Assembly: GCA_024408435.1 (NCBI GenBank)
Contig: JAKSVA010000001.1
Coordinates: 1-56,798 of the forward strand
Direction of reading: 5' to 3'
DNA from: Bacilli bacterium
GTDB lineage: Bacteria > Bacillota_I > Bacilli_A > RFN20 > CAG-826
DNA: 56,798 bases
Shown here piece by piece: positions 2,960 through 45,017 of the stretch. A program made the translations under genes and the position numbers. The notes under the pieces are model-generated. The model did no database searches. It was not told where the DNA came from and worked only from the letters and a program-made list of their open reading frames with translations. Each line of letters opens with the position of its first letter. Position 1 is the stretch's first letter.

Positions 2960-3621
2960 TTATCACTATCAATTACGGCATTAGTCTTGCCTAATAAAGT
3001 AATGATGGCTACATCTGATGCAATTGAAACAATGAAGTTTAAAACATTAAAAATAATTAATAAAACTTGGACGGCTTTATTATCAGCAAGCGCTGGAATA
3101 ATAACTAATACACCAAAAATTGAACCTAAGATAATTCCAATGACGTTAACAATAACGGAAATCTTATACCACTTAATAACGATTGGTGCGAAGGATGTTA
3201 TTTGTGAATCATTACCAGAAATAACCACACAACCTTTAATGATGTTTAAAGTAATGTAAATGCTAATAACTAAGCCAATGACATTAGCGACACTACTAAA
3301 GGAGATAATTAAAGCGGTTGCAACTGGATGATCAGCGCTAGCGACCGCGCGAAGAATAGCATCTAAAACGGCACTAGTTAAGAAAAGCGCTAAAGCGACC
3401 ACAACAGCTTTTAAAATATTCGTAAATTCTTTATATTCATCTTGAAGTTTCACAATCGCGATTAATTGGAAAATTAAACCGACAACAGAAAATAATGAGA
3501 AGAAGCCAAGAAAGCCAGCCCAACTTGCTAAATAAAATAAATTAGAGATACCACATAGAATAAAACCAACTAACAATAAACTAACTGCACCTTTTGCTTT
3601 AAACGATACTTTTTTTGCCAT
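2956..3621 (-). CDS. Hypothetical polytopic membrane protein
   Basis: 221 aa, about 6 hydrophobic segments, no recognisable catalytic motif. Its stop overlaps the mgtE stop (CTAA). Confidence 0.6.
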   Translation of the reverse strand: MAKKVSFKAKGAVSLLLVGFILCGISNLFYLASWAGFLGFFSLFSVVGLIFQLIAIVKLQDEYKEFTNILKAVVVALALFLTSAVLDAILRAVASADHPVATALIISFSSVANVIGLVISIYITLNIIKGCVVISGNDSQITSFAPIVIKWYKISVIVNVIGIILGSIFGVLVIIPALADNKAVQVLLIIFNVLNFIVSIASDVAIITLLGKTNAVIDSDN

Positions 3622-3688: not shown

Positions 3689-4087
3689 TTATTTAACGAA
3701 CGCAACGATGACGCGTTTCGCACCATCACCACGACGACTCACACATTTATATTTATGTGTATAGCCACCTTTCCGGTCTTTATAACGAGGACCTAAAACT
3801 TTAAATAATTTATTAATCGCCTTTACGTTCTCATCATTCTTTTCGTTCCTTAGAAGTCTTGCGGCTTCACGGCGATTAGCAACACTATCCTTTTTCGCTA
3901 AAGTAATCAAATGATCAATATTAGTGATTAAGTCCTTCGTGACACCACTAGTAACCGTAATCTTTTCATAGAGGATTAACTCAGTGACCACGTTTCTTTG
4001 CATAGCTTTTTCGCGGGTTGCGGTCCAGCCAGTTTTAAAACGGACACCAGTCTTACCATGAACGTTCTTTCTACCATGACTTGCCAT
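3689..4087 (-). CDS. rplQ: 50S ribosomal protein L17
   Basis: The core REKAMQRNVVTELILYEKITVT ... GGYTHKYKCVSRRGDGA matches the L17 family. It is the last gene after rpoA. Confidence 0.95.
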   Translation of the reverse strand: MASHGRKNVHGKTGVRFKTGWTATREKAMQRNVVTELILYEKITVTSGVTKDLITNIDHLITLAKKDSVANRREAARLLRNEKNDENVKAINKLFKVLGPRYKDRKGGYTHKYKCVSRRGDGAKRVIVAFVK

Positions 4088-4089
4088 AA

Positions 4090-5070
4090 TTACTTATTCT
4101 CCACTGAATAATCACGGAAGGAGAGGCCAAGAGAAGCGAGTTTCTCTTTAACTTCTTTAAGTGATTTCTTACCTAAGTTACGAACTTTCATCATTTCATC
4201 TTCGGTCTTTTGGGTTAATTCATAGACAGTAGTGATATTTGCTCTTTTAAGGCAGTTATAGGAACGAACGCTAAGATCAAGATCTTCAATTGGTGTTTCG
4301 TTAACCTTATTATCTTCTTTCACTTCCACTGGTGGTTCTTCAAATTTAATGGTGAAGTTTTCATCCTTTGCAAATTCCATTAAGTGAGCGATTAAGATGT
4401 TCGCTGCAGTATTAACGGCTTCAACTGGTTTAACTGAACCATTCGTCCAAACTTCTAAAGTAAGTTTATCAAAACGGGAATCGTGTTTAACACGGGTTGG
4501 TTCAACTTCATAACTTGTCTTAATAACTGGACTATAGTTACTATCCGTATCGATTCGACCAATTTGATTGGGGTGATCGTTACTGGCTTTATTACTTTCA
4601 GCAGTAACATAACCACGACCACTTCTTGCGAACAAACTCATATGTAAACGACCGTTCTTCGCTAAGTGAGCAATCTCTAAATCTGGGTTAACAACACTTA
4701 CCATGCCTGGGCATTCAATATCTTTTGCATACACAGTGCATGGACCTTTCTTATCAATTTCAAGACGACGAGTTTCTTCGCTATCATCATCAATCTTAAT
4801 GATTAAATCCTTGAGATTTAAAACAATGGTCATTACATCTTCCGTGATACCTTCAAGCGAAGAGAATTCATGGCGAGCGCCATCAATTTCAACCGCGAAG
4901 ATTGATGCACCGGGAAGGGCGCTAAGTAATACGCGACGAAGCGCATTACCAATGGTTAAACCAAAACCTCTTTCAAGGGGTTCAACCACAAATTTTCCAT
5001 AGTTAGTTTCGTCATTAAGAACCTCGACATGGAAGTTCATCTTTTTAAATGCTTTTGGTAAATTATTCAT
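4090..5070 (-). CDS. rpoA: DNA-directed RNA polymerase subunit alpha
   Basis: 326 aa. The N-terminal domain has YGKFVVEPLERGFGLTIGNALRRVLLS. The C-terminal domain has IEDLDLSVRSYNCLKRANI. Confidence 0.97.
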   Translation of the reverse strand: MNNLPKAFKKMNFHVEVLNDETNYGKFVVEPLERGFGLTIGNALRRVLLSALPGASIFAVEIDGARHEFSSLEGITEDVMTIVLNLKDLIIKIDDDSEETRRLEIDKKGPCTVYAKDIECPGMVSVVNPDLEIAHLAKNGRLHMSLFARSGRGYVTAESNKASNDHPNQIGRIDTDSNYSPVIKTSYEVEPTRVKHDSRFDKLTLEVWTNGSVKPVEAVNTAANILIAHLMEFAKDENFTIKFEEPPVEVKEDNKVNETPIEDLDLSVRSYNCLKRANITTVYELTQKTEDEMMKVRNLGKKSLKEVKEKLASLGLSFRDYSVENK

Positions 5071-6270: not shown

Positions 6271-7032
6271 CTACTTAATCTCCTTGTCTTGGGTAAGTAT
6301 TTCATACCCATCCTTAGTAACCACTAAGGTATTTTCGTAATGAGAAGATAGTTTACCATCTTTCATTTTGGCTGTCCAGCCATCGCTTAGAATTTTTACG
6401 CGATAATCACCTTCGGCAACCATCGGTTCAATCGCTAAGCACATCCCAGCTTTTAAAATCACACCAGTTCCCGCTTCCCCATAATTAGGAATACTTGGAT
6501 CTTCGTGAAGATGGCGACCAACGCCATGTCCAGTGTAGTCACGGATGACAGAAAACCCATTTTTCTCCACGTGAGTTTGGATGGCATGGGAGACATCACC
6601 TAGATGAACACCTTCTTTAATGAGCTTAACGCCTTCATAGAAAGATTCTTCCGTTACTCTTACGAGTTTCTTCGTACTTTCTTTTGCTCTACCAACTACA
6701 TATGTACGGCACGCATCAGCGACATACCCATTAAGTGTCGCCCCAACATCAAGTGAGACGACATCACCATCACGAAGGATGGTGTGTTTACTCGGAATAC
6801 CATGTACTACCGTATCATTCACGGAAATACATATCACTCCGGGATAGCCTTCGTAATTAAGGAAGGTTGGGATTGCTCCATGACTTCTAATTACTTGATC
6901 GGCTTTGTTAGCGAGGGCGAGAGTAGAAACCCCTGGGATACAAAGTGGTTCTAATTGCTTGAAGACATCGCTAACGACTTCTCCGGCTTTTTTGATTAAT
7001 TCAATTTCGCGCGGAGATTTAATAATGATCAC
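6271..7032 (-). CDS. map: Type I methionine aminopeptidase
   Basis: 253 aa. Metal ligand context is present: [38 protein letters not shown]. Confidence 0.96.
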
Positions 7033-26503: not shown

Positions 26504-26626
26504 TTTTATTTTATAATAAAAAATATTATTTGTTAAAAAACGTCATTATTATATATGATAACAATTATTACTAAATAAAAAAGTTCATCACATCGCTTTA
26601 TTATGAACTTATATCGCAAGATGGAA

Positions 26627-26936
26627 TCTTCTCCCATGATGACAAAGTCATGATAGGTTACATAACTATCTATTAATACACTTATTAACTAAATAATAAT
26701 TATCATTAAATGAATCGATTTACCACTAACCCCCACGTTGTCATAGACAAGGTGGGTACTCTTCTCCCATGATAACGAAGTTAGGATGAGTTAACTAATA
26801 TTATTAATAATGTCTATTAACTAAGAAATATATTATTCCCACTAACTAAAGTTATTTATTACTAACAAACATCTTGTTGTGGCAACAAGAGGATGGACAA
26901 TTCACTCCACGATGTCAAAGACAGGGTGGACCCGGT
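26627..26936 (+). repeat. Two tandem units (133 and ~177 bp) of an imperfect-hairpin repeat family, junction copy 1
   Basis: Both units begin TCTTCTCCCATGAT (26627 and 26760). Hairpins are CCCATGATGAC-AAA-GTCATGATAGG (26633..26657), CCCACGTTGTC-ATA-GACAAGGTGGG (26732..26756), TCTTGTTG-TGGC-CAACAAGA (26872..26891) and CCACGATGTC-AAA-GACAGGGTGG (26907..26929). Confidence 0.8.
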
Positions 26937-27141: not shown

Positions 27142-28950
27142 ATGAAATTTGTTCTTCAACACGTTGTTTTTCCTTCTATAAAAAATATTGGTAACATAAG
27201 CGATTTATATTTTAAAAGCAATAGGAAAGTTATTTTTGATTACACAAAAAATGAACCAATACGTATGTCAAAACAACAAGAGTTAGAGTTTGCTACATAC
27301 TTTAATTGCTTTTCACAACAAAAATGGATTTTATATACTGATATTGGAAATATCAATCTATCCATTGAATTAAAAGGACAATTTTCTATTTCTTTATTAC
27401 ATCTATATAAAAATGGCCTCAACAAGAGTTGTTGTGAAATTTTATCAACAAAAAAAATAGTTTCTGACACTAGAAAAATTTTTGATTTGAATTTTTCATC
27501 TTTTGACTCGACTGGAATTCTTGCATTTAAAATCACATCGCTAGTAGACGGATCGTTATATTATGATTCATATTTCTACACTAATATCGATGAGCAAAAA
27601 ATTAAAAACATTAATTTAGGTATAGGAATATGCACATACAAAAGAGAAAAATATGTAACACAAAATATATCTTCATTGACTAATGCAATAAAACTAAATA
27701 ATTGTTTTTCTAATTTACAAATATTTATTGCGGATAATGGAAATACATTGCAATCGTTTAATAACGACCATATCCATTTATTTAAAAACAGAAATACTGG
27801 TGGATCAGGCGGTTTTACACGCTGCATGATAGAAGCCATAAATTATAATAAAAAAAACAATCACCCAATTACTCATCTTATTCTCATGGATGATGACATC
27901 ATTTTTGATTGCGAATCCATTTTTAGAACTCATGCAATGTTGTCCATACTTAAAGATGATTACAAAAAAGAGTTTGTTGGTGGCGCAATGTTTTTCTTTG
28001 ATAAGCCATACATTCAGCACGCATCTGGCGAATTTTGGGTCGGTGATAGATGCGAAAGTTTTATTGATACATACAATAGAAACCTTGACATGAGAAAAAT
28101 TTCGTGTGTTCTTGATAGTGAAAAACCACTTTATTCCAATTATCAAGCTTGGTGGTACTGTGCTATTCCTATGTCCATTGTCTCTTACAAAAATTTGCCA
28201 ATGCCTTTTTTCGTAAAAAGCGATGATATTGAATATAGTATAAGAAACAAAAATCACACTATATTACTTAATGGAATTTGTGTGTGGCATGAATCGTTTG
28301 AATCAAAATATTCCCCAAAAAATGAATATTATACAGTAAGAAATTATCTAATAACCGCAAGTGCTCATAAAATAAAATTGGATAAAAGAAGGATTAAGTC
28401 TTTTTTTCTAAGGTATGTAAAACACTACATATGCAATTATAAATATTTAGAAATTAAATATTTTTGTTATGCGCTAAATGATTTTTTACGTGGAGTTGAT
28501 TACGTTAAATCAATAAATATTGAGCAATGCCACAAAGTAAAATTAAATAAAGGTTATAAAATAATGCATGTCAACGATTTACCTTTTCATTTTTCAAAAG
28601 CAGAATACTGGAAAACAATAAAAGAGGATGAGAAACATAAAGTTCCATTCTTATTCGCGAAATACACTATCAACGGATTACTAATCCCATCCCATAAGTA
28701 TGCAGTCTTAGGTGTATGGGGTGGCTCATATTATCAAACTTATAGAAAAAAATTTTTAATTAGATATGATCCCCATACTAACACCGCCTTTATATTACGC
28801 AGAAAACCTTTATTAAGTTTCAAATCATTATTGTTAGCATATAGAACTGTGAGAAAAATAAACAAATATTTTGATTATGCTTATAAGGATTTTTCTAAAA
28901 ATTGGAGGAAATTAATTTCTTACGATAATTGGAAAAAACATTTAAGTTAA
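27142..28950 (+). CDS. Family 2 glycosyltransferase, GlfT2-like architecture
   Basis: 602 aa. It has NRNTGGSGGFTRCM, LILMDDDIIFD (DxD) and QAWWYCAIPMS...FVKSDDIEYSIR. It is a paralogue of 33540..34592. Confidence 0.75.
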   Translation: MKFVLQHVVFPSIKNIGNISDLYFKSNRKVIFDYTKNEPIRMSKQQELEFATYFNCFSQQKWILYTDIGNINLSIELKGQFSISLLHLYKNGLNKSCCEILSTKKIVSDTRKIFDLNFSSFDSTGILAFKITSLVDGSLYYDSYFYTNIDEQKIKNINLGIGICTYKREKYVTQNISSLTNAIKLNNCFSNLQIFIADNGNTLQSFNNDHIHLFKNRNTGGSGGFTRCMIEAINYNKKNNHPITHLILMDDDIIFDCESIFRTHAMLSILKDDYKKEFVGGAMFFFDKPYIQHASGEFWVGDRCESFIDTYNRNLDMRKISCVLDSEKPLYSNYQAWWYCAIPMSIVSYKNLPMPFFVKSDDIEYSIRNKNHTILLNGICVWHESFESKYSPKNEYYTVRNYLITASAHKIKLDKRRIKSFFLRYVKHYICNYKYLEIKYFCYALNDFLRGVDYVKSINIEQCHKVKLNKGYKIMHVNDLPFHFSKAEYWKTIKEDEKHKVPFLFAKYTINGLLIPSHKYAVLGVWGGSYYQTYRKKFLIRYDPHTNTAFILRRKPLLSFKSLLLAYRTVRKINKYFDYAYKDFSKNWRKLISYDNWKKHLS

Positions 28951-35523: not shown

Positions 35524-36330
35524 TTACTTCACTGATTTTTTATATCTTTTCCCAAAAAACTTAGCTCTTAAATAATTAATGCCTTTGCGGAGTTTTGCAA
35601 ACGCAATTAATTCAAGATACCCAACCTCTTTATATTTAATATTATTATGTCTTAGATAGATATCTAACATTAGTTCAGATACACTACCCATATAACGTTT
35701 TTCATAATCACTCCAAGTTGAAGAATCAATCTTATTTTCAATTGCACCTAATACATCAAATAACCATGGTAGATATTTATCTAGGAATGTTTTATTTGCA
35801 ATTAACATATTAAACATATGCGCGGATCTTCTTTTTCTTAAATTATTAAATTCTTTAAGATATTCAGGATATTTATCTTTAATTACTTCTTCTGCAGCTT
35901 TTAGTGGTTCAGGTCTAAGTGTACGACAATAATGATCATAAAGTGTCTCAATAATGTAATAACGTTTCTTAGGCACGATAATATCGTAATTAGATAAGAT
36001 AGACTTGCACTCTTCTTCACTTATAACATGAACAGTTTTATCATCTGCGGATATTCTTAATCTACCTTTAAAGTATCTCCGGTAATGCGCTAAACCTAAA
36101 AAATCATAATCTAAATGCTTCCATCCCCAATATAATGCAGTTAATTCTGAATAATAAGGATTCTTATCAGAGATATTATCTCCTTCATCATCACGAGCGA
36201 TACCAAAACTAGGTTTATTAACCGCTCCAGCCTGAATAAGTTTATAAAAACTATTCGCATATAAAGTAAATGGAATATGAGTACAAACTAAGATTGTGTT
36301 CTTTTTATCCATAAGATAATTATATAGCAT
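35524..36330 (-). CDS. DUF4422-type putative glycosyltransferase
   Basis: ILVCTHIPF, YYSELTALYWGWKH and DFLGLAHYRRYF are characteristic of DUF4422 proteins in polysaccharide loci. The start could instead be the ATG at 36312. Confidence 0.7.
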   Translation of the reverse strand: MLYNYLMDKKNTILVCTHIPFTLYANSFYKLIQAGAVNKPSFGIARDDEGDNISDKNPYYSELTALYWGWKHLDYDFLGLAHYRRYFKGRLRISADDKTVHVISEEECKSILSNYDIIVPKKRYYIIETLYDHYCRTLRPEPLKAAEEVIKDKYPEYLKEFNNLRKRRSAHMFNMLIANKTFLDKYLPWLFDVLGAIENKIDSSTWSDYEKRYMGSVSELMLDIYLRHNNIKYKEVGYLELIAFAKLRKGINYLRAKFFGKRYKKSVK

Positions 36331-36359: not shown

Positions 36360-36558
36360 GCGGGTCCACCCTGTCATTGACATCGTGGACAGGGGATGGA
36401 TACCCTCTTGTTGACACAATAGGGTATGGCTATGATATAAGTTTCTTTATTATTATCATTTAGTTAATATAAATATATTAATAGATAGTATATAACCCAT
36501 CATGACTTTGTCATCATGGGGGAAAGCTTCCACCTTGTCTAAACGACAACGTGGGAAT
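36360..36558 (-). repeat. Imperfect-hairpin repeat family, junction copy 2 (inverted relative to 26731..26936)
   Basis: The reverse complement of 36361..36388 matches 26907..26934 at 27/28. The reverse complement of 36496..36520 matches 26633..26657 at 24/25. The reverse complement of 36530..36555 has the same arms as 26732..26756 but a different loop. Confidence 0.8.
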
Positions 36559-40892: not shown

Positions 40893-41048
40893 ATGTTATA
40901 TTATTGTAATTATTTTATATAATATTTCAACAAAAACATAATTTTGTGTATTGACTTTACTATGTAATCAATTTAATATAGTGATACAGAGCCCACCACG
41001 CATAAGGCACATTCGTGTGTACTGCGAACCAGGGTGGGACATTTTATT

Positions 41049-41891
41049 ATGAAGTTACCATTGATTTTATCTGATTATCCAAATTTATCCGTTGATGACA
41101 TCAACAAGGTTAGCCGTTTTCTTTCTACTAAATGTAGTGAGTATCGTTTTATTGATTTTATGCGTTGCTCAAATGGTAATGTTAAGGATGCTATCGAGTT
41201 CTTTAAATTTGATGATGCGCTAAGAGCACTATTAATTCAATATTTAATTCGTTTTGAGATACAAGTTAAAACCGATTTCATAAAAGAAGTAGAAACCGCA
41301 ACTAGTTCTAATTCATTTTGGGATAATCCTTCGTATTATTTCAAAAGTTCTACCATTCCATATTATCCTGATGGCAAATCAAAGTTTGACAAAATAAAAG
41401 AAGATATAACTCAAAACTTAAAAAGATATGCCTTTAATACACCTGGTCCATCTGATTACCGAGCATTAATGTTTTCTTCTTTTGGCTCGTTCCACAATCT
41501 ATTTAAAAATATAGATCTTCCTTACAAGAAAAAATTTATTGATAGATATACTATAAAGTTACCAGTACATAACTATTATGTATTAAATGGATATTTTTCA
41601 GCTATTCAAGCTATTAGAAATCGATGTGCACACGGAAACCATATTGTTACAATAAAGCTAAAAAATCAATTAAACGCTCATATTAACTTAATTCATAAGA
41701 TGAATTCTCCTATGCCAAAAATAAACATTTCTGTCTTTGATGCGGTTCTTATATTTTTAATAAATGTCCTAAACTGCGGTGGAGAATTTAAAGGCAAATT
41801 AAAGAAGATTATTACCAAATACAGTGGCGTTTTATTTAGATATCCTGGTAACTATGTATTCTCACCAAATATAATAAATAAAATTTTGTAA
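41049..41891 (+). CDS. Abi_2 (AbiD/AbiF-like) family protein, HEPN-type with an Rx4H motif
   Basis: FSAIQAIRNRCAHGNHIV (R-x4-H) and the N-terminal FKFDDALRALLIQYLIRFEIQVKTDF are typical of Abi_2. The ATG at 41049 is preferred over the GTG at 41034. Confidence 0.75.
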   Translation: MKLPLILSDYPNLSVDDINKVSRFLSTKCSEYRFIDFMRCSNGNVKDAIEFFKFDDALRALLIQYLIRFEIQVKTDFIKEVETATSSNSFWDNPSYYFKSSTIPYYPDGKSKFDKIKEDITQNLKRYAFNTPGPSDYRALMFSSFGSFHNLFKNIDLPYKKKFIDRYTIKLPVHNYYVLNGYFSAIQAIRNRCAHGNHIVTIKLKNQLNAHINLIHKMNSPMPKINISVFDAVLIFLINVLNCGGEFKGKLKKIITKYSGVLFRYPGNYVFSPNIINKIL

Positions 41892-41948
41892 CACATTTCA
41901 CTTTCTATTGTGTATAATACTAATTAGATGACCGGGTTTTTACCGGCC

Positions 41949-41973
41949 GCGGGCGAGAGCCCGCTTTTCTTTT
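41949..41973 (+). terminator. Rho-independent terminator after the Abi_2 gene
   Basis: The stem is GCGGGC-GAGA-GCCCGC (41949..41964), followed by TTTTCTTTT. Confidence 0.8.
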
Positions 41974-41989
41974 ACTAAACTAAAAACAC

Positions 41990-42056
41990 ACAATCCTAAC
42001 TTCATTATCATAGGGTGGGGGTTTGCTCCCTTTGTTTTGTTAATACAAAAAAGAGG
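41990..42056 (-). repeat. Degenerate third copy of the imperfect-hairpin repeat family (junction copy 3)
   Basis: AATCCTAACTTCATTATCATAGGG resembles the reverse complement of 26766..26790 (CATCCTAACTTCGTTATCAT-GGG). It is followed by a pyrimidine arm, loop and purine arm: CCCTTTGTTTTG-TTAATA-CAAAAAAGAGG. Confidence 0.45.
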
Positions 42057-42075
42057 TACACTTAAATTTGTTTTA

Positions 42076-42146
42076 TTATTGCTTTGTTTAGATTAGAAAA
42101 AAGATGGATAAGGAATATTAAAAGTTATACTTTTTATTGATAAAAG
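42076..42146 (+). repeat. Remnant duplicate of the promoter-proximal region and first codons of the sugar transferase gene (direct repeat of 45094..45165)
   Basis: TTATTGCTTTGTTTAGATTAGAA..AAGATGGATAAGGAATAT(T)AAAGTTATAC aligns with the sequence around the 45125 start codon at roughly 60 of 70 positions. Here ATG GAT AAG GAA TAT is followed by TAA. Confidence 0.8.
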
Positions 42147-42147
42147 A

Positions 42148-43827
42148 TTATTTAGTAATTCCGGTAATTAATTCCACGGCTTTTCTTTCATTTTCTATAT
42201 CAGTAAATGCTTCAAAAATGATTGGTTTATTAATAGAAGAATCTAAGAACTTTTTAAGATTAGAGAGAAACTCTTTTTTATTATGAGCGGAGAGATATTC
42301 AAATCCTAGATTTTTAGCGTAGTCTCTCACTAATGTTTTTGATTTATTTCCATTATGACCACCAGCGGCAATAAATTCATTAATTTTATTACTATCACCT
42401 GCAAATATTTTATAGGCACGATGAAGAGCTAAATTAAACTCAACTCCGCATCCATTGTTTATTAATAATATTCTAAGGTTTTTATTAATATTATGATTCG
42501 CTAAGATATTAAGACTATAAAAGAATGCTAAATCACCCATAATCCCATAACAAGGAGTGTTAGGATTCGCTAGTGAAAAACCTAACAATGTAGGAATAAC
42601 CCCATCAATTCCTCTACAACCGGTATTAGCCCAAATAACTGGATTATTCTTAAATTCAAAAAATGTGTAGGATCTCATGGTATTACTAAGTCCTAACTCA
42701 AGAAGATAGTTATGAGGAAAAACTTGACTTACCTGTTTAGCCATCCAAACATTAGAAAAAGGAAGTTCAGGAATTAGTGAATAAAACGAATTAACTTCCT
42801 TCTTGAGATATTTAAAATACTCATTATTAGAAATTTTCGAATCTTTATTTTTAATATAGTAAGAGAAAAAATCAATTTCTCTCATTTTAAAAGTATTAGT
42901 TAAATTAGAGAAAGTGTCTCTAATTTCACCATCTTCACTAATTCGCCATGTTTCTTTAGCTTTACCTTGAATCCATCCATTAGTGAAATAATCAGCATGT
43001 TCCTCGCCAATATGAATTAATAAATCCATTTCTAAATTTTTTATCTTACATAATCTTTGTGAAGTTAAGATAGTTGGTAATACGCGATATTTTCCATAAT
43101 AGTGGCTAGAATGATCTACTAAAACCACTCCATTATAAATTTTACAAAATCTATCAATAGCGTTACTTAATATAGGTGACATGATTTTATGAGCGCCGAT
43201 GATAATCCCAACTCTTTTTGCTTTTATACGAGGAAGTTCATCATATACATAATAACGTCTCATGATTCTAGTGCTTGATAAATCAGCATCCACAAACGTA
43301 TCACTAAAATTACTGGCTAAATCTATATGAATAGGGCCACCACCATCTTTATAACATTCTAGAATTGCTCTATTTAATTTAATAGTAGCCTGGTATAAGT
43401 CAGCGTCACTTCTCACGATTGGAACTTGCACACTCATTTTTACTAAATCCGAAGGATGTTTATCTCTTTCAATATATTGAGTTGCTAAATTACCACTTTT
43501 ATTAAAATCTTGCGAAGCAGTTACAGCAATAACGGGAATCTTCCGATGATAAGCTTCGGTAAGAGAAGAATAATAGTTTCTCGATGCCGTAGCTCCAGTA
43601 CAAGTAATTACTGCTGGTTGTCCAGTACTAGTTGCTAAACCAAGCGCAATATAACCAGCGCCTCTTTCGTCGATAGCTGAATATAATTTAAAATAACCAT
43701 CATTGATTAAACTCACAACAAAATTGATATTAGTGGTCCCTGGACTAATGACAACATTTTTAATGTGATGTGCTTTTAAAATGGCAATCAATATTTGCAC
43801 ATTTTTTTCGATTGAGTACTTTTTCAT
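42148..43827 (-). CDS. Thiamine-pyrophosphate-dependent enzyme (MenD/acetolactate synthase superfamily) in a glycan locus
   Basis: 559 aa. The N-terminal PYR domain has VVISPGTTNINFV...DERGAGYIALGLA. The C-terminal TPP motif is GIMGDLAFFYSLNIL...LLINNGCG (GDx...NN). Confidence 0.75.
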   Translation of the reverse strand: MKKYSIEKNVQILIAILKAHHIKNVVISPGTTNINFVVSLINDGYFKLYSAIDERGAGYIALGLATSTGQPAVITCTGATASRNYYSSLTEAYHRKIPVIAVTASQDFNKSGNLATQYIERDKHPSDLVKMSVQVPIVRSDADLYQATIKLNRAILECYKDGGGPIHIDLASNFSDTFVDADLSSTRIMRRYYVYDELPRIKAKRVGIIIGAHKIMSPILSNAIDRFCKIYNGVVLVDHSSHYYGKYRVLPTILTSQRLCKIKNLEMDLLIHIGEEHADYFTNGWIQGKAKETWRISEDGEIRDTFSNLTNTFKMREIDFFSYYIKNKDSKISNNEYFKYLKKEVNSFYSLIPELPFSNVWMAKQVSQVFPHNYLLELGLSNTMRSYTFFEFKNNPVIWANTGCRGIDGVIPTLLGFSLANPNTPCYGIMGDLAFFYSLNILANHNINKNLRILLINNGCGVEFNLALHRAYKIFAGDSNKINEFIAAGGHNGNKSKTLVRDYAKNLGFEYLSAHNKKEFLSNLKKFLDSSINKPIIFEAFTDIENERKAVELITGITK

Positions 43828-43919
43828 ATGCTTTAATATTATAACATTAAATGTTTATTTACTAATAAACAACCACGCTATTTTGCCAACAATAAATAGT
43901 TTTTTTATATAAGGTGTGA

Positions 43920-45017
43920 CTATTTATTATCAAATAATTCTTTTAGAAGTTTTTTTGACTCATTAATATAGGAAGATAATGTTTGATTAATCGCATCATA
44001 ATCGACTTTTTCATCTACGCTAGTTAAATTATTGATTTCTAGATGAGAAAGATTTAGTCTTTTTGATAAATCCGCTAATCTAGGATTAACATTTGCTTTT
44101 TTCTTGGCTAATTCATAATAAAAATTCTTTTTAAATATCAAACTAAAAGCCATGCCATGAAAAGAAGTTGTTACCACATATTGTGCATTCAATATGAGTT
44201 CTAATAAATCTCTAGGGCCAACTCCATAGAGATTAATCATCTGTTTAGGATAATGTATTGTGTTGTAATAATTTACATATAGAATCTTATAACCTGTTTT
44301 TTTACTTAATTCCAAAGCAAATTTATTCGCGTATTTTTGTTTTACCATGTAGTAAACAAGTATGTACTTTCCATATTTAGTTGTATTACTTAGATTAAAT
44401 TCTTTTATCCACTCATCTTTTGATAATAAAAAAACAGAATCACAATTAACTGAAACATTCTTATTAATTCCTAATGAATTTAAAATTAATGTTCCGCTAG
44501 ATTCGCGAGTAGAGAAGTTATTATAATGGCTTATCTTTGCTTGGATAGTTTTCATTAACTTATTAGAAAATGATGATCGACCAAAACTTGCTGCATAAGA
44601 ATATTTCTTACTATCATCGGCAAAATCAAGGAAATAAGTATAATCAAATCTATTAATATAAGGGTTCCACACTTGATCACTACCAGAAATAAAGTAATCA
44701 AAACTAGAATTAGCGTTCTTAATAGATTTCAAGTCATAACTATCACTTAAATCGAATTGGTTGTTCTTAAAATGTTCAAATTTTTCAAAAGTTTCGTTTT
44801 TGCCCGAAAATGATTTAGTAAATAGATGTAATTTTGTCATCAACCTACGGAAAAAGAGTTTTGTTGTTCCGTAATATTCCCTATCCACTGATTTAGAATG
44901 ATAATCAACAATTTTGGTATCATAAATTGTTTTTAAAAAAGTTTGTAAGGCAAACGCTTGTAACATCGCTCCATAGTTATGCGCTCTATGAAATGTGACT
45001 ATTCCGACTTTTTTCAT
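43920..45017 (-). CDS. Polysaccharide pyruvyl transferase family protein
   Basis: MKKVGIVTFHRAHNYGAMLQAFALQ and VVTTSFHGMAFSLIFKKNF are typical of the family. Confidence 0.8.
   Translation of the reverse strand: MKKVGIVTFHRAHNYGAMLQAFALQTFLKTIYDTKIVDYHSKSVDREYYGTTKLFFRRLMTKLHLFTKSFSGKNETFEKFEHFKNNQFDLSDSYDLKSIKNANSSFDYFISGSDQVWNPYINRFDYTYFLDFADDSKKYSYAASFGRSSFSNKLMKTIQAKISHYNNFSTRESSGTLILNSLGINKNVSVNCDSVFLLSKDEWIKEFNLSNTTKYGKYILVYYMVKQKYANKFALELSKKTGYKILYVNYYNTIHYPKQMINLYGVGPRDLLELILNAQYVVTTSFHGMAFSLIFKKNFYYELAKKKANVNPRLADLSKRLNLSHLEINNLTSVDEKVDYDAINQTLSSYINESKKLLKELFDNK

What the first reader, a model, noticed from the sequence alone, without database searches (positions are those of the whole stretch)
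26627..26936. Family of imperfect hairpins (10-11-bp arms, 3-5-nt loops, one conserved central mismatch) arranged in ~133-bp tandem units
Seen:
- Two tandem units each begin TCTTCTCCCATGAT.
- The hairpins CCCATGATGAC/GTCATGATAGG, CCACGTTGTC/GACAAGGTGG and CCACGATGTC/GACAGGGTGG share the pattern CC(C)A-N-N-(A/T)TG(A/T)C. Each keeps a non-pairing position in the middle of the stem.
- In the inverted copy at 36360..36558 the arms, including the mismatch, are conserved while the loops differ (ATA vs GTTTA, AAA vs AAT).

Inference:
- Conservation of arms plus mismatch with variable loops is what one expects for protein-recognised folded or duplex sites. Examples are REP/RAYT-like elements, IS200/IS605-type ends, attC-like sites and dimeric regulator operators. 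It is not what one expects for simple terminators.
- No cognate recombinase is encoded in the window.
Basis: partly seen in the sequence, partly recalled or inferred. Interest (0 to 1): 0.6.

Follow-up and report, generated by a model that had tools for sequence, protein, structure and literature searches.

The report
Hairpin-pair repeat module at island junctions
The mismatched hairpins are real and belong to a small, previously undescribed folded repeat that sits only at the joints between sugar-coat and phage-defence gene blocks in a few uncultured horse-gut bacteria; what it does is still unknown, but it does not match any known mobile-element or recombinase site.

Summary
Observation confirmed. 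The window holds seven hairpins at the stated places: a 4-5 bp C-rich/G-rich foot, a G.G mismatch, a 4-5 bp upper stem and a 3-5 nt loop. They are arranged as hairpin pairs. A full module of about 200-330 bp has five parts: a 5' pair, a roughly 70-nt conserved AT-rich core, a variable tail, a 3' pair and a sharp end ...CCG.

- **Distribution:** in this 0.95-Mb genome (82% complete) the family occurs only at 26.6 kb, 36.4 kb and, in degenerate form, 42.0 kb. Covariance models find it in five species of the genus and one species of a sister genus. They find nothing convincing in about 300 other genomes of the family and order, in Rfam, plasmids or phages. Two exact motifs (hpA plus flank, and the AT core) also found nothing in JGI metagenomes.
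- **Structure:** stems are kept by compensatory changes (8 pairs, 96% of cells paired, 0 of 500 shuffles reach this). Loop lengths vary and the purine.purine mismatch is kept. The hairpins are therefore selected as folded single strands.
- **Membership tests:** those for REP/RAYT, IS200/IS605 ends, attC, Xer/dif sites, intrinsic terminators and LoaP/EAR leaders fail.
- **Position:** modules always lie in one hypervariable glycan/defence island. They lie upstream of the predicted operon promoters, not inside the leaders.

Best reading (about 0.33): a BOX/REP-like structured boundary element acting as RNA. Sequencing runs could not be searched, so transcription and inversion are untested.

The parts
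26616..26624 (+). Remnant of the 3' arm of an hpB hairpin (GCAAGATGG). The left edge of locus A is truncated inside this hairpin.
   Evidence: Aligns with ACAAGGTGGAATCTTTCTCCC of the G001 C38 copy. Read from the sequence; the R2 covariance model gives a partial match at 26597-26657.
26633..26657 (+). hpA of unit 1: CCCAT-GA-TGAC-AAA-GTCA-TG-ATAGG. It has the G.G mismatch plus one C.A.
26658..26731 (+). AT-rich core of unit 1 (TTACATAACTATCTATTAATACACTTATTAACTAAATAAT...), ending in the CCACTAAC motif.
26732..26790 (+). Middle hairpin pair. hpB: CCCAC-GT-TGTC-ATA-GACA-AG-GTGGG. Then a C/T-rich linker. hpA': CCCAT-GA-TAAC-GAA-GTTA-GG-ATGAG.
   Evidence: R2 covariance model, 74.8 bits
26791..26869 (+). 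Degenerate second AT-rich core, including TATTAACTAAGAAAT and CCCACTAAC.
26870..26934 (+). Terminal hairpin pair of locus A. hpC: CATCTTGTTG-TGG-CAACAAGAGGATG. hpB': TCCAC-GA-TGTC-AAA-GACA-GG-GTGGA. The module then ends sharply with CCCG, followed by GTTTTT.
   Evidence: R2, 33.6 bits
27126..27134 (+). Predicted extended -10 promoter (TGCTAATAT), 7 nt before the ATG of the first glycan gene at 27142. It lies about 190 nt downstream of the module.
   Evidence: Read from the sequence. A consensus match only; inferred.
36496..36555 (-). 5' hairpin pair of locus B. hpB: CCCAC-GT-TGTC-GTTTA-GACA-AG-GTGG. hpA: CCCAT-GA-TGAC-AAA-GTCA-TG-ATGGG.
   Evidence: R2, 76.6 bits; minimum-free-energy fold -28.6 kcal/mol, z = -4.95
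36427..36495 (-). Conserved AT-rich core of locus B (TTATATACTATCTATTAATATATTTATATTAACTAAATGATAATAATAAAGAAAC...).
   Evidence: Alignments. Identity to the copies in other genomes is 83-86%.
36361..36426 (-). Terminal hairpin pair of locus B. hpC: CCCT-A-TTGT-GTCA-ACAA-G-AGGG. hpB': TCCAC-GA-TGTC-AAT-GACA-GG-GTGGA. The module ends with CCCG.
36319..36329 (-). Predicted extended -10 promoter (TGCTATATAAT) of the DUF4422 glycosyltransferase operon. The likely true start codon is the second ATG, at 36312-36310.
   Evidence: Read from the sequence. A consensus match only; inferred.
41990..42056 (-). Degenerate hairpin pair (copy 3), including CCTATGATAATGAAGTTAGGATTG. It lies between the Abi_2 terminator and a relic of the sugar-transferase 5' end.
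   Evidence: R2, 19.6 bits, E = 0.016. The orthologous intact pair is at G001 C45:39993-40052.

Best explanation
The hairpins are the building blocks of a discrete modular intergenic element. It is restricted to one small clade of uncultured horse-gut Bacilli with genomes of about 1 Mb and 34% GC.

**Anatomy.** The basic unit is a pair of hairpins joined by a 7-13 nt pyrimidine-rich linker. Each hairpin has a C-rich/G-rich foot, a purine.purine internal loop (G.G, or GA/GG) and a short upper stem. A full module is a 5' pair, a conserved AT-rich core of about 70 nt, a variable tail with a CACTAAC motif, a 3' pair and the end ...CCG. Locus A carries an extra, decaying tandem unit.

**Location.** Modules occur only at junctions between gene blocks in the hypervariable glycan/defence island next to the ribosomal-protein operon.

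**Shown.** The stems are under selection for pairing and the mismatch is retained, in lineages where no Y1 transposase and no recombinase other than XerC/XerD was found.

**Inferred.**
- The element is read as a folded single strand. It is most likely RNA made in the module-sense direction, either from neighbouring or bidirectional promoters or from a weak internal promoter overlapping hpA.
- It acts in cis as a boundary structure that caps, stabilises or insulates transcripts of the flanking cassettes. An unidentified factor would recognise it through the purine.purine loop.
- In kind it resembles pneumococcal BOX or enterobacterial REP/BIME elements when these are co-transcribed.
- Its conserved sequence incidentally provides portable homology at which glycan and defence cassettes are exchanged.
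For: **Pairing under selection**
- RNAalifold independently predicts the four hairpins and leaves the mismatch unpaired.
- 96.2% of cells are paired. Eight pairs change on both sides, and 0 of 500 shuffles reach this. Slid controls give 34-50% paired.
- Upper stems vary with compensation: TGAC/GTCA, TAAC/GTTA, CAAC/GTTG, TTGC/GCAA, and TGTC/GACA versus TGTAT/ATACA versus TGTAC/GTACA. One foot changes from CCCAC/GTGGG to CTCAC/GTGAG.
- Loops vary from 3 to 5 nt while the arms are kept.

**Strand**
- The upstream pair folds better on the sense strand (-28.6 versus -24.9 and -25.4 versus -21.4 kcal/mol).

**Conservation**
- Module identity is 83-95% between loci and species. Neighbouring glycan and PTS genes are 70-82% identical, and the ribosomal-protein operon end is 82-88%.

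**Absence of a mobilising enzyme**
- No Y1 transposase was found in 7 of 7 genomes of the genus, although 47 of 201 genomes of the family have one.
- Only XerC and XerD, in housekeeping contexts, and no resolvase.

**Orientation**
- The module's 3' end faces a gene start in 9 contexts and a gene end in 3 independent contexts. It never lies between two gene ends.

**Precedent**
- BOX repeats form extensive secondary structure, are transcribed, and are thought to affect co-transcribed genes (PMC3049150).
Against:
- The predicted operon promoters (extended -10 elements within 7-13 nt of the start codons) lie downstream of the terminal hairpins. The module is therefore not inside the main predicted transcription units.
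- No strong promoter is predicted inside the module or upstream of hpB.
- Single-side changes give about five G.U and five C.A pairs on the sense strand, so there is no strand bias of the kind expected for an RNA read from one strand.
- The downstream hairpin pairs fold equally well on both strands.
- In G006, G144 and G004 the module points at the 3' end of a convergent gene.
- No binding factor is identified.
Confidence: 0.33

Rival explanations
1. A non-autonomous, or now immobile, single-strand-DNA element. It would have subterminal hairpins on one strand at both ends, like an IS200/IS605-derived PATE or a REP-type element. It would be mobilised by an HUH/Y1 enzyme that is unsampled or lost. 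Its position at cassette junctions would reflect insertion preference or survival, not a host function.
For: - Both ends of the module carry same-strand imperfect hairpins, with no terminal inverted repeats and no target duplication.
- Homology starts exactly at the hpB foot and stops after ...CCG in 7 copies with unrelated flanks.
- The same module subtype sits in three different contexts: G001 C38, G006 and G144.
- IS605-type elements of this bacterial family have left- and right-end hairpins of the same style, (C)nCAC...GTG(G)n with a mismatch.
- A conserved stem mismatch is a known determinant for TnpAREP and the IS200/IS605 transposases (PMC8266576, PMC3201880).
Against: - No Y1_Tnp was found in any of the 7 genomes of the genus.
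- There are only 1-7 hairpin pairs per genome, and nearly all lie in one island.
- No conserved tetranucleotide flanks the 5' end, and there is no GTAG.
- The family's IS605 end motifs (GCAAGAAG......AGTATGTCAC) are absent from the module.
- Compensatory evolution continues in lineages that lack the enzyme.
- No copies were found in plasmid or phage collections.
Confidence: 0.2
2. The module is a small non-coding RNA gene of its own. A weak promoter overlapping hpA (ATGACA, 16-18 nt, TATACT/TACTAT) would drive it. The RNA would run through the AU-rich core and end at the terminal hairpin pair followed by ...CCG and a T-run.
For: - The promoter-like site in hpA scores 10 of 12 in locus B and is conserved in all full modules (alignments).
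- The terminal hairpin is followed by a T-run 3-6 nt away in 6 of 10 copies.
- Orientation independent of the neighbours fits an independent gene.
- The unstructured AT core is strongly conserved.
Against: - The promoter match is weak, and such matches are as frequent in shuffled sequence (7 found versus 6.9 expected).
- T-runs are not adjacent to the stems and are absent in B, G001 C38 and G004.
- Hairpin-pair-only copies (G002 C67, C43; G001 C45, C4, C71) have no core.
- This reading does not explain why the upstream pair has the same folded architecture.
- There is no Rfam match.
Confidence: 0.15
3. A double-stranded-DNA promoter or operator cassette. The palindromes would be binding sites of a dimeric regulator that co-ordinates surface-glycan operons and neighbouring genes.
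For: - The hairpins are near-palindromes placed 28-65 nt upstream of predicted -10 elements in several loci.
- hpA-type sites have an almost constant length of 25 bp.
- In G000 and G001 the glycan block is bracketed by inward-facing modules, each next to an operon start.
Against: - hpB-type half-site spacing varies from 23 to 25 bp, and one hpA site is 27 bp.
- Inner positions covary to keep pairing, which a protein-contacted duplex site does not require.
- The distance from hairpin centre to the predicted -10 is 28, 53, 54, 62, 63 and about 200 nt, so there is no fixed geometry.
- Some modules face gene 3' ends (G006, G144, G004).
- No regulator gene lies in or beside the clusters.
Confidence: 0.12
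4. A site-specific recombination site: an invertible promoter, inversion of the block flanked by A and B, or an integron-like or pdif-like cassette junction.
For: - Modules sit at every boundary between glycan and defence blocks.
- A and B are inverted copies flanking 9.4 kb. The same bracket exists in G001.
- The left edge of locus A is broken inside a hairpin.
- Unit number differs between orthologous sites: a full module in G001 C55 versus a single pair in G002 C67.
Against: - Only housekeeping XerC and XerD were found. There is no invertase, resolvase or integron integrase.
- The candidate chromosomal dif (C40:442, ACTTCGCATAA-GGTATA-TTATGTTAACC) is canonical and unlike the hairpins.
- Spacers of 3-5 nt are too short and too variable for tyrosine recombinases.
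- The AT core has the same orientation relative to the hairpins in all six full copies.
- There are no attC core boxes.
Confidence: 0.1

Closest known systems
BOX elements of Streptococcus pneumoniae (boxA-boxB(n)-boxC; Croucher et al. 2011, PMC3049150)
   Same: - Modular intergenic repeats with a tandemly reiterated internal unit and extensive predicted secondary structure.
- Restricted to a narrow clade.
- Found beside or upstream of genes and thought to affect co-transcribed genes.
- No transposase of their own.
   Different: - BOX elements are dispersed (the paper describes extensive proliferation throughout the chromosome). Here there are 1-7 hairpin pairs per genome, almost all in one island.
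- There is no sequence similarity.
- The purine.purine internal loop and the paired-hairpin unit are specific to this element.
REP/BIME elements and their RAYT (TnpAREP) transposase (PMC8266576, PMC3479197)
   Same: Short imperfect palindromes with a conserved stem mismatch that is needed for recognition. They are extragenic, clustered in composite arrays, and recognised strand-specifically as folded single strands.
   Different: - No 5' GTAG.
- No RAYT/Y1 gene in the genus.
- Tiny copy number.
- Hairpins are in direct rather than alternating orientation.
- A long conserved AT-rich core lies between the hairpins.
IS200/IS605 left- and right-end hairpins and their non-autonomous derivatives (PATEs) (PMC3201880, PMC7290912)
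   Same: - Same-strand subterminal imperfect hairpins at both ends of a non-coding unit.
- No terminal inverted repeats and no target duplication.
- The style of the hairpin foot (CCCAC...GTGGG) resembles the IS605-type elements present in this bacterial family.
   Different: - No TnpA in the genus.
- Module homology begins at the hairpin foot instead of at a cleavage site some distance away.
- No conserved flanking target.
- The IS end motifs are not shared.
- Hairpins come in pairs.
Integron attC sites
   Same: Structure rather than sequence is conserved, and unpaired bases are kept in the stem. The sites lie at boundaries between gene cassettes and would be read as folded single strands.
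   Different: - No IntI.
- No RYYYAAC/GTTRRRY boxes.
- Copies are in both orientations.
- The blocks are multi-gene and have their own promoters.
- The hairpins are much shorter (23-27 nt).
Leader RNAs for processive antitermination of polysaccharide operons (EAR of Bacillus eps; the LoaP-bound leader hairpin, PMC12691694; phage HK022 put, from my own knowledge)
   Same: Conserved hairpins next to long surface-polysaccharide operons. The two adjacent stem-loops recall put.
   Different: - No match to any Rfam family, so none to EAR if Rfam holds it.
- One NusG per genome, so no LoaP.
- Predicted promoters lie downstream of the hairpins.
- Some modules face gene 3' ends or sit among defence genes only (G004).

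Membership tests
REP / RAYT (REPtron) | A conserved GTAG tetranucleotide 5' of the palindrome | tested here: not met
   The 4 nt before the hairpin feet are CATT, AAAC, CTTT, ACGT, CACT, CTGT, TTCT, TACT and so on. None is GTAG. The feature is as defined in PMC8266576.
REP / RAYT (REPtron) | A cognate Y1 (TnpAREP) gene in the genome | tested here: not met
   PF01797 gave no match in G000 and none in G001-G006. These genomes are 61-90% complete.
REP / RAYT (REPtron) | High copy number, dispersed through extragenic space | tested here: not met
   Three loci on one contig in G000, and 1-7 hairpin pairs per genome in relatives.
REP / RAYT (REPtron) | An imperfect palindrome with a conserved stem mismatch | tested here: met
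   G.G is kept in about 26 of 29 hairpins.
IS200/IS605 ends / PATE | A TnpA (Y1 HUH) transposase available in the genome | tested here: not met
   0 of 7 genomes of the genus. It is present in 47 of 201 genomes of the family, and in G144.
IS200/IS605 ends / PATE | Same-strand subterminal hairpins at both ends | tested here: met
   Hairpin pairs with G.G on the same strand occur at both ends of all six full modules.
IS200/IS605 ends / PATE | A conserved target or cleavage motif abutting the left end, and end sequences shared with an autonomous IS | tested here: not met
   The 5' flanks are unrelated. The family's IS605-type ends (GCAAGAAG-CCCCCAC......AGTATGTCAC) are absent from the module.
Integron attC | An IntI integrase, and R''/R' boxes (RYYYAAC / GTTRRRY) | tested here: not met
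   Both tyrosine recombinases score best as XerD and XerC and fall far below the integron-integrase cut-off. CACTAAC and GTTAGGA/GTTGGGA do not fit the box consensus (read from the sequence).
Xer site (dif / pdif module) | Arms of 11-6-11 bp with an inner ATAA...TTAT | tested here: not met
   The hairpins have 3-5 nt spacers and no ATAA/TTAT. The genome's own dif candidate, at C40:442, is canonical (the B. subtilis dif query came from memory).
Intrinsic (Rho-independent) terminator | A G+C-rich stem immediately followed by a U-tract | tested here: not met
   The scan does not call any hpA, hpB or hpB' hairpin. Its only hit inside the module is the reverse strand of hpC (26890-26872). T-runs, where present, start 3-6 nt after the stem. 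Canonical terminators do exist nearby, for example after Abi_2.
Invertible promoter (inverton) | Both orientations of the flanked segment present in a population, and an invertase gene | not testable with these tools
No invertase or resolvase was found. The core has one orientation relative to the hairpins in all six assembled copies.
LoaP / EAR-type antitermination leader | A NusG paralogue, or a match to the EAR model | tested here: not met
   There is one NusG per genome. Rfam gave no hit at gathering threshold or at E up to 10.
Any Rfam 15 family | A covariance-model match | tested here: not met

The most novel reading that the evidence does not exclude
The hairpin-pair modules are the junction sites of an undescribed cassette-shuffling system. 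An unidentified enzyme would read the G.G-mismatched hairpins as folded single-stranded DNA and exchange or invert glycan and defence cassettes within the island next to the ribosomal-protein operon. This would be an integron-like system without IntI.
Probability: 0.07. Interest if true: 0.8.

Novelty: new variant of a known kind. Interest (0 to 1): 0.38.

Why it matters
If the module is a functional boundary element, it marks how reduced-genome gut Bacilli organise and exchange surface-glycan and anti-phage cassettes in a single hotspot. These two gene sets decide phage sensitivity and host interaction.

It also gives a compact RNA or single-stranded-DNA recognition motif supported by covariation: a short helix with a G.G or GA/GG internal loop, always in pairs. 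The binding partner of this motif is unknown.

If it is only a decaying repeat, it is still a useful marker for the island's junctions. In either case the practical result is that it should not be annotated as a REP, IS200/IS605, attC, terminator or riboswitch element.

Tried and rejected
- **Sequencing runs:** No RNA-seq, inversion or unit-number test could be made.
- **More copies from public data:**
  - Two JGI metagenome scans, one with the hpA pattern and one with the AT-core pattern, found 0 hits.
  - The viral-contig hits are chance matches: one lies inside a coding region, and the 36 hpB-pattern hits are about the number expected.
  - Plasmid and phage collections gave no match.
  - The genome-contig scan returned only the two relatives already in hand.
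  - The look-up of encoding contigs with two flanking proteins found only the window's own assembly.
- **Order-level search:** the covariance-model search gave only weak hits inside coding sequence, which I judged to be chance.
- **Mini-ORFs:** MMTKS* inside hpA, and MMGYILSINIFIN* running into the core, were rejected. They have no ribosome-binding site, and indels in G006, G144 and locus B break the frame.
- **CsrA-type GGA motifs:** GGA occurs only in hpA' and lies in the stem. No CsrA or Hfq was found by tblastn (the query sequences came from memory, so this is a weak test).
- **Linked protein:** a 56-aa ORF precedes the hairpin pairs at G001 C4 and C71. It has no Pfam match and no homologue in G000.
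- **Other checks that failed:** long-range pairing that would close the whole module is seen only in G006. No target-site duplications were found. The IHF consensus in the core does not fit.
- **Wobble bias:** the G.U versus C.A comparison, meant to decide the folded strand, gave about 5 versus 5 and is uninformative.
Full report
**1. What is in the sequence**

- The pattern CCACNNTGTC-N3-6-GACANGGTGG occurs four times in the window, against 0.00 expected from shuffles.
- All hairpins share one build:
  - a 4-5 bp foot, C-rich on the 5' side and G-rich on the 3' side (CCCAC/GTGGG or CCCAT/ATGGG);
  - a G.G mismatch;
  - a neighbouring position that is either a Watson-Crick pair (GT/AG, GA/TG) or a second purine.purine mismatch (GA/GG, GG/AG);
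  - a 4-5 bp upper stem;
  - a loop of 3-5 nt.
- The TCTTCTCCCATGAT repeat, 133 nt apart, is real. The two tandem units are only about 70-76% identical, and Tandem Repeats Finder does not report them.
- The left edge of locus A is truncated inside a hairpin. Only the 3' arm of an hpB survives, at 26616-26624.

**2. Anatomy of the element**

I compared the two loci with each other and with related loci.

- The basic unit is a pair of hairpins: an hpB- or hpC-type, then an hpA- or hpB'-type. A 7-13 nt pyrimidine-rich linker joins them.
- A full module has, in order:
  - a 5' pair (hpB then hpA);
  - a conserved AT-rich core of about 70 nt (TTACATACTATCTATTAATATATTTATTAACTAAATAATCATAATAAAGAAAC);
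  - a variable AT-rich tail of 0-110 nt containing a C(A/T)CTAA(C/T)AA motif;
  - a 3' pair whose hairpins carry the GA/GG loop.
- Homology between copies begins at the hpB foot. It ends sharply after ...(A/G)CCG in seven copies whose flanks are unrelated.
- In 6 of 10 copies a T-run follows 3-6 nt later.
- Locus A has one extra unit, which is decaying.

**3. Distribution**

The genome held is a 950,839-bp, 110-contig assembly with 33.7% GC and 82% completeness. Related contigs carry the title 'MAG: Bacilli bacterium ... Horse_feces'.

- In this genome the family occurs only on contig C1, at 26.6 kb, 36.4 kb and a degenerate copy at 41990-42056. This was checked by regular expression, blastn and covariance model.
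- Model R1 (5' pair plus core) found the element in G000, G001, G002 and G006, weakly in G004, and in one genome of a sister genus, G144. Model R2 (hairpin pair), run on named genomes, confirmed these and scored G004 clearly (47 bits).
- About 150 family genomes (R1) and 150 order genomes (R2) gave nothing convincing. The weak R2 hits fall inside coding sequence.
- There are 1-7 hairpin pairs per genome.
- There is no match in Rfam, plasmids or phages. The two exact motifs scanned in JGI metagenomes (hpA with its flank, and the AT core) found nothing. Viral contigs gave only chance matches to the hpA and hpB patterns.

**4. Genomic context**

In every genome the modules lie in one hypervariable island just downstream of the ribosomal-protein operon. 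Window positions 18.7-19.0 kb are syntenic with G006 C4, G144 C1 and G001 C55.

- The island mixes two kinds of gene block (earlier notes e1-3692984 and e1-3692988):
  - wall-glycan blocks (GlfT2-like and GT2 transferases, pyruvyl transferases, an ABC-2 exporter);
  - defence blocks (ABC-3C, DGQHR, OLD/PARIS, Abi_2, HNH, NERD).
- In G000, modules A and B bracket a 9.4-kb glycan block and point inward, each next to an operon start.
- The same bracket exists in G001, because contig C38 ends where C55 begins (a 55-nt overlap at 100% identity).
- In G006 and G144 the module points at the 3' end of a convergent glycan gene.
- In G004, two diverged modules sit among defence genes only.
- In G001 C4 and C71, a hairpin pair follows a duplicated 56-aa ORF.
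- Overall, the module's 3' end faces a gene start in nine contexts and a gene end in three independent contexts. It never lies between two gene ends.
- The same module subtype occurs with entirely different neighbours (G001 C38, G006, G144).
- Module identity is 83-95%. This compares with 70-82% for the glycan and PTS genes and 82-88% for the ribosomal-protein operon end.

**5. Is the fold selected?**

- RNAalifold, run on five full modules, predicts exactly the four hairpins and leaves the mismatch unpaired.
- Counting pairs on that alignment gives 96.2% of cells paired. Eight pairs change on both sides, and the covariation score is 0.289 against 0.134 in shuffles (0 of 500 shuffles reach it). 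Sliding the 3' partners by 1-3 columns gives 34-50% paired.
- Independent compensatory events include:
  - TGAC/GTCA, TAAC/GTTA, CAAC/GTTG and TTGC/GCAA in hpA';
  - TGTC/GACA versus TGTAT/ATACA versus TGTAC/GTACA in hpB;
  - foot changes from CCCAC/GTGGG to CTCAC/GTGAG.
- Loop length varies while the arms are kept.
- These facts argue for a folded single strand and against a duplex operator.
- Which strand folds is not settled:
  - the upstream pair is 3.7-4 kcal/mol more stable on the module-sense strand, but the downstream pairs are equal on both strands;
  - single-side changes give about five G.U and five C.A pairs on the sense strand.

**6. Tests against known families**

- **REP/RAYT.** Defining features are taken from PMC8266576. 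There is no GTAG, no Y1 gene in any of the seven genomes of the genus, and only three loci.
- **IS200/IS605.** Y1 transposases are common in the wider family (47 of 201 genomes). Their IS605-type elements have hairpins of similar style, CCCCCAC...GTGGGGG with a mismatch. Their conserved end motifs are not in the module. The module has no conserved flanking target.
- **attC.** There is no integron integrase, no core boxes, and the copies lie in opposite orientations.
- **Xer sites.** The two tyrosine recombinases are XerD-like (next to deoB) and XerC-like (next to topA). A canonical dif candidate lies at C40:442 and is unlike the hairpins.
- **Terminators.** The scan does not call any hpA, hpB or hpB' hairpin; its one hit in the module is the reverse strand of hpC.
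- **LoaP/EAR.** There is one NusG per genome and no Rfam hit.
- **Inverton.** No invertase was found, and the core has a single orientation in all assemblies. Read-level evidence could not be obtained.

**7. Relation to promoters**

This part is inferred from consensus matches.

- Several island genes have an extended -10 element (TGnTAnnAT) 7-13 nt before the start codon:
  - TGCTATATAAT before the second ATG of the DUF4422 gene (36329-36319);
  - TGCTAATAT before 27142;
  - TTGTTATAAT before the G006 HNH gene;
  - TGCTATAAT before the G144 gene.
- A plain TATAAT without the TG sits before the G001 C55 and G002 C67 GT2 operons.
- These elements lie downstream of the terminal hairpins, at distances of 28 to about 200 nt.
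- The module is therefore not a simple 5'-UTR leader of the main transcripts, and it has no fixed operator-promoter geometry.
- The only promoter-like site inside the module overlaps hpA (ATGACA, 16-18 nt, TATACT/TACTAT). Such matches are no commoner than in shuffled sequence.

**8. Interpretation**

- **Shown:**
  - it is a discrete, clade-restricted, low-copy structured module;
  - pairing and a purine.purine mismatch are under selection;
  - it is confined to junctions of one glycan/defence island;
  - no Y1 transposase and no recombinase other than XerC/XerD was found in the genomes searched.
- **Inferred (confidence about 0.33):** it acts as folded RNA in cis on the transcripts of neighbouring cassettes. 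It would cap, stabilise or insulate them, like co-transcribed BOX or REP elements (PMC3049150), and would be recognised by an unknown factor. It would also provide portable homology for cassette exchange.
- **Rivals:**
  - a relic or trans-mobilised single-stranded-DNA element (0.20);
  - an independent small RNA gene (0.15);
  - a duplex operator or promoter cassette (0.12);
  - a site-specific recombination site (0.10).

**9. Verdict**

Each specific family it named fails its membership test.

The element is a new variant of the known kind 'structured intergenic repeat'. It is of moderate interest.

Noticed in passing
window 36310-36330 (-): The ATG at 36330, which the ORF list uses for the DUF4422 glycosyltransferase, lies inside a perfect extended -10 element (TGCTATATAAT). 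The second ATG, at 36312-36310, is about 6 nt after the -10 and is more likely the start. That implies a leaderless or very short-leader mRNA. The same geometry is seen before 27142, before the G006 HNH gene and before the G144 380-aa gene.
   Followed up: partly
G000 contig C40:442 (-), outside the window: A candidate chromosomal dif site, ACTTCGCATAA-GGTATA-TTATGTTAACC. It closely resembles the E. coli and Firmicute dif consensus.
   Followed up: no
L008 (G001 C55) about 2300-2330, and L025 (G002 C43) about 6290-6320: A second conserved intergenic motif, CTCGTTTGGTTTACATAATAWGGG, occurs upstream of unrelated defence-type genes: an ImmA-like metallopeptidase neighbourhood and a NERD-like gene. 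It may be a shared promoter or operator of island cassettes.
   Followed up: no
L020/L008 (G001 C55), hpB at contig position 2885-2908: The stop codon (TAG) of the upstream ImmA-like HExxH gene lies in the loop of hpB. The hairpin's 5' arm therefore encodes the last four residues. The last roughly 96 nt of that gene are not homologous to its G006 counterpart.
   Followed up: partly
L116 (G001 C4) 4076-4246, and L117 (G001 C71) 3334-3504: A duplicated 56-aa ORF (MYSKST.GALTEEEIDFLSMAGQGDALLM.DAT.RISFHVSLKDIEKEESLILH.E). It has no Pfam match and no homologue in G000. In each copy, a diverged hairpin pair of this family follows about 70-80 nt downstream.
   Followed up: partly
L094, L102, L092 and L080 (family genomes G061, G042, G139, G144): IS605-type elements of this bacterial family share the left-end sequence ...GCAAGAAGTCCCCCAC...GGTGGGGGATGAATTGC and the right-end sequence ...GCAAGAAGCCCCCACTTCTTTAAGTGGTGGGAGTATGTCAC. 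Y1 transposases occur in 47 of 201 family genomes and in none of the 7 genomes of the window's genus.
   Followed up: partly
window 41034-42150, with L022 (G001 C45) and L023 (G002 C67): The region upstream of the priming sugar-transferase gene carries an antisense hpA'-type hairpin in three genomes. In G000 a two-gene insertion (42148-45017) has separated it from the gene. This fits the 70-bp duplication noted in e1-3692994.
   Followed up: partly
G001 C38 end and C55 start: The last 55 nt of contig C38 equal the first 55 nt of C55 (100% identity). The two contigs therefore join, and together they reconstruct a glycan block of about 13.5 kb bracketed by inward-facing modules.
   Followed up: yes
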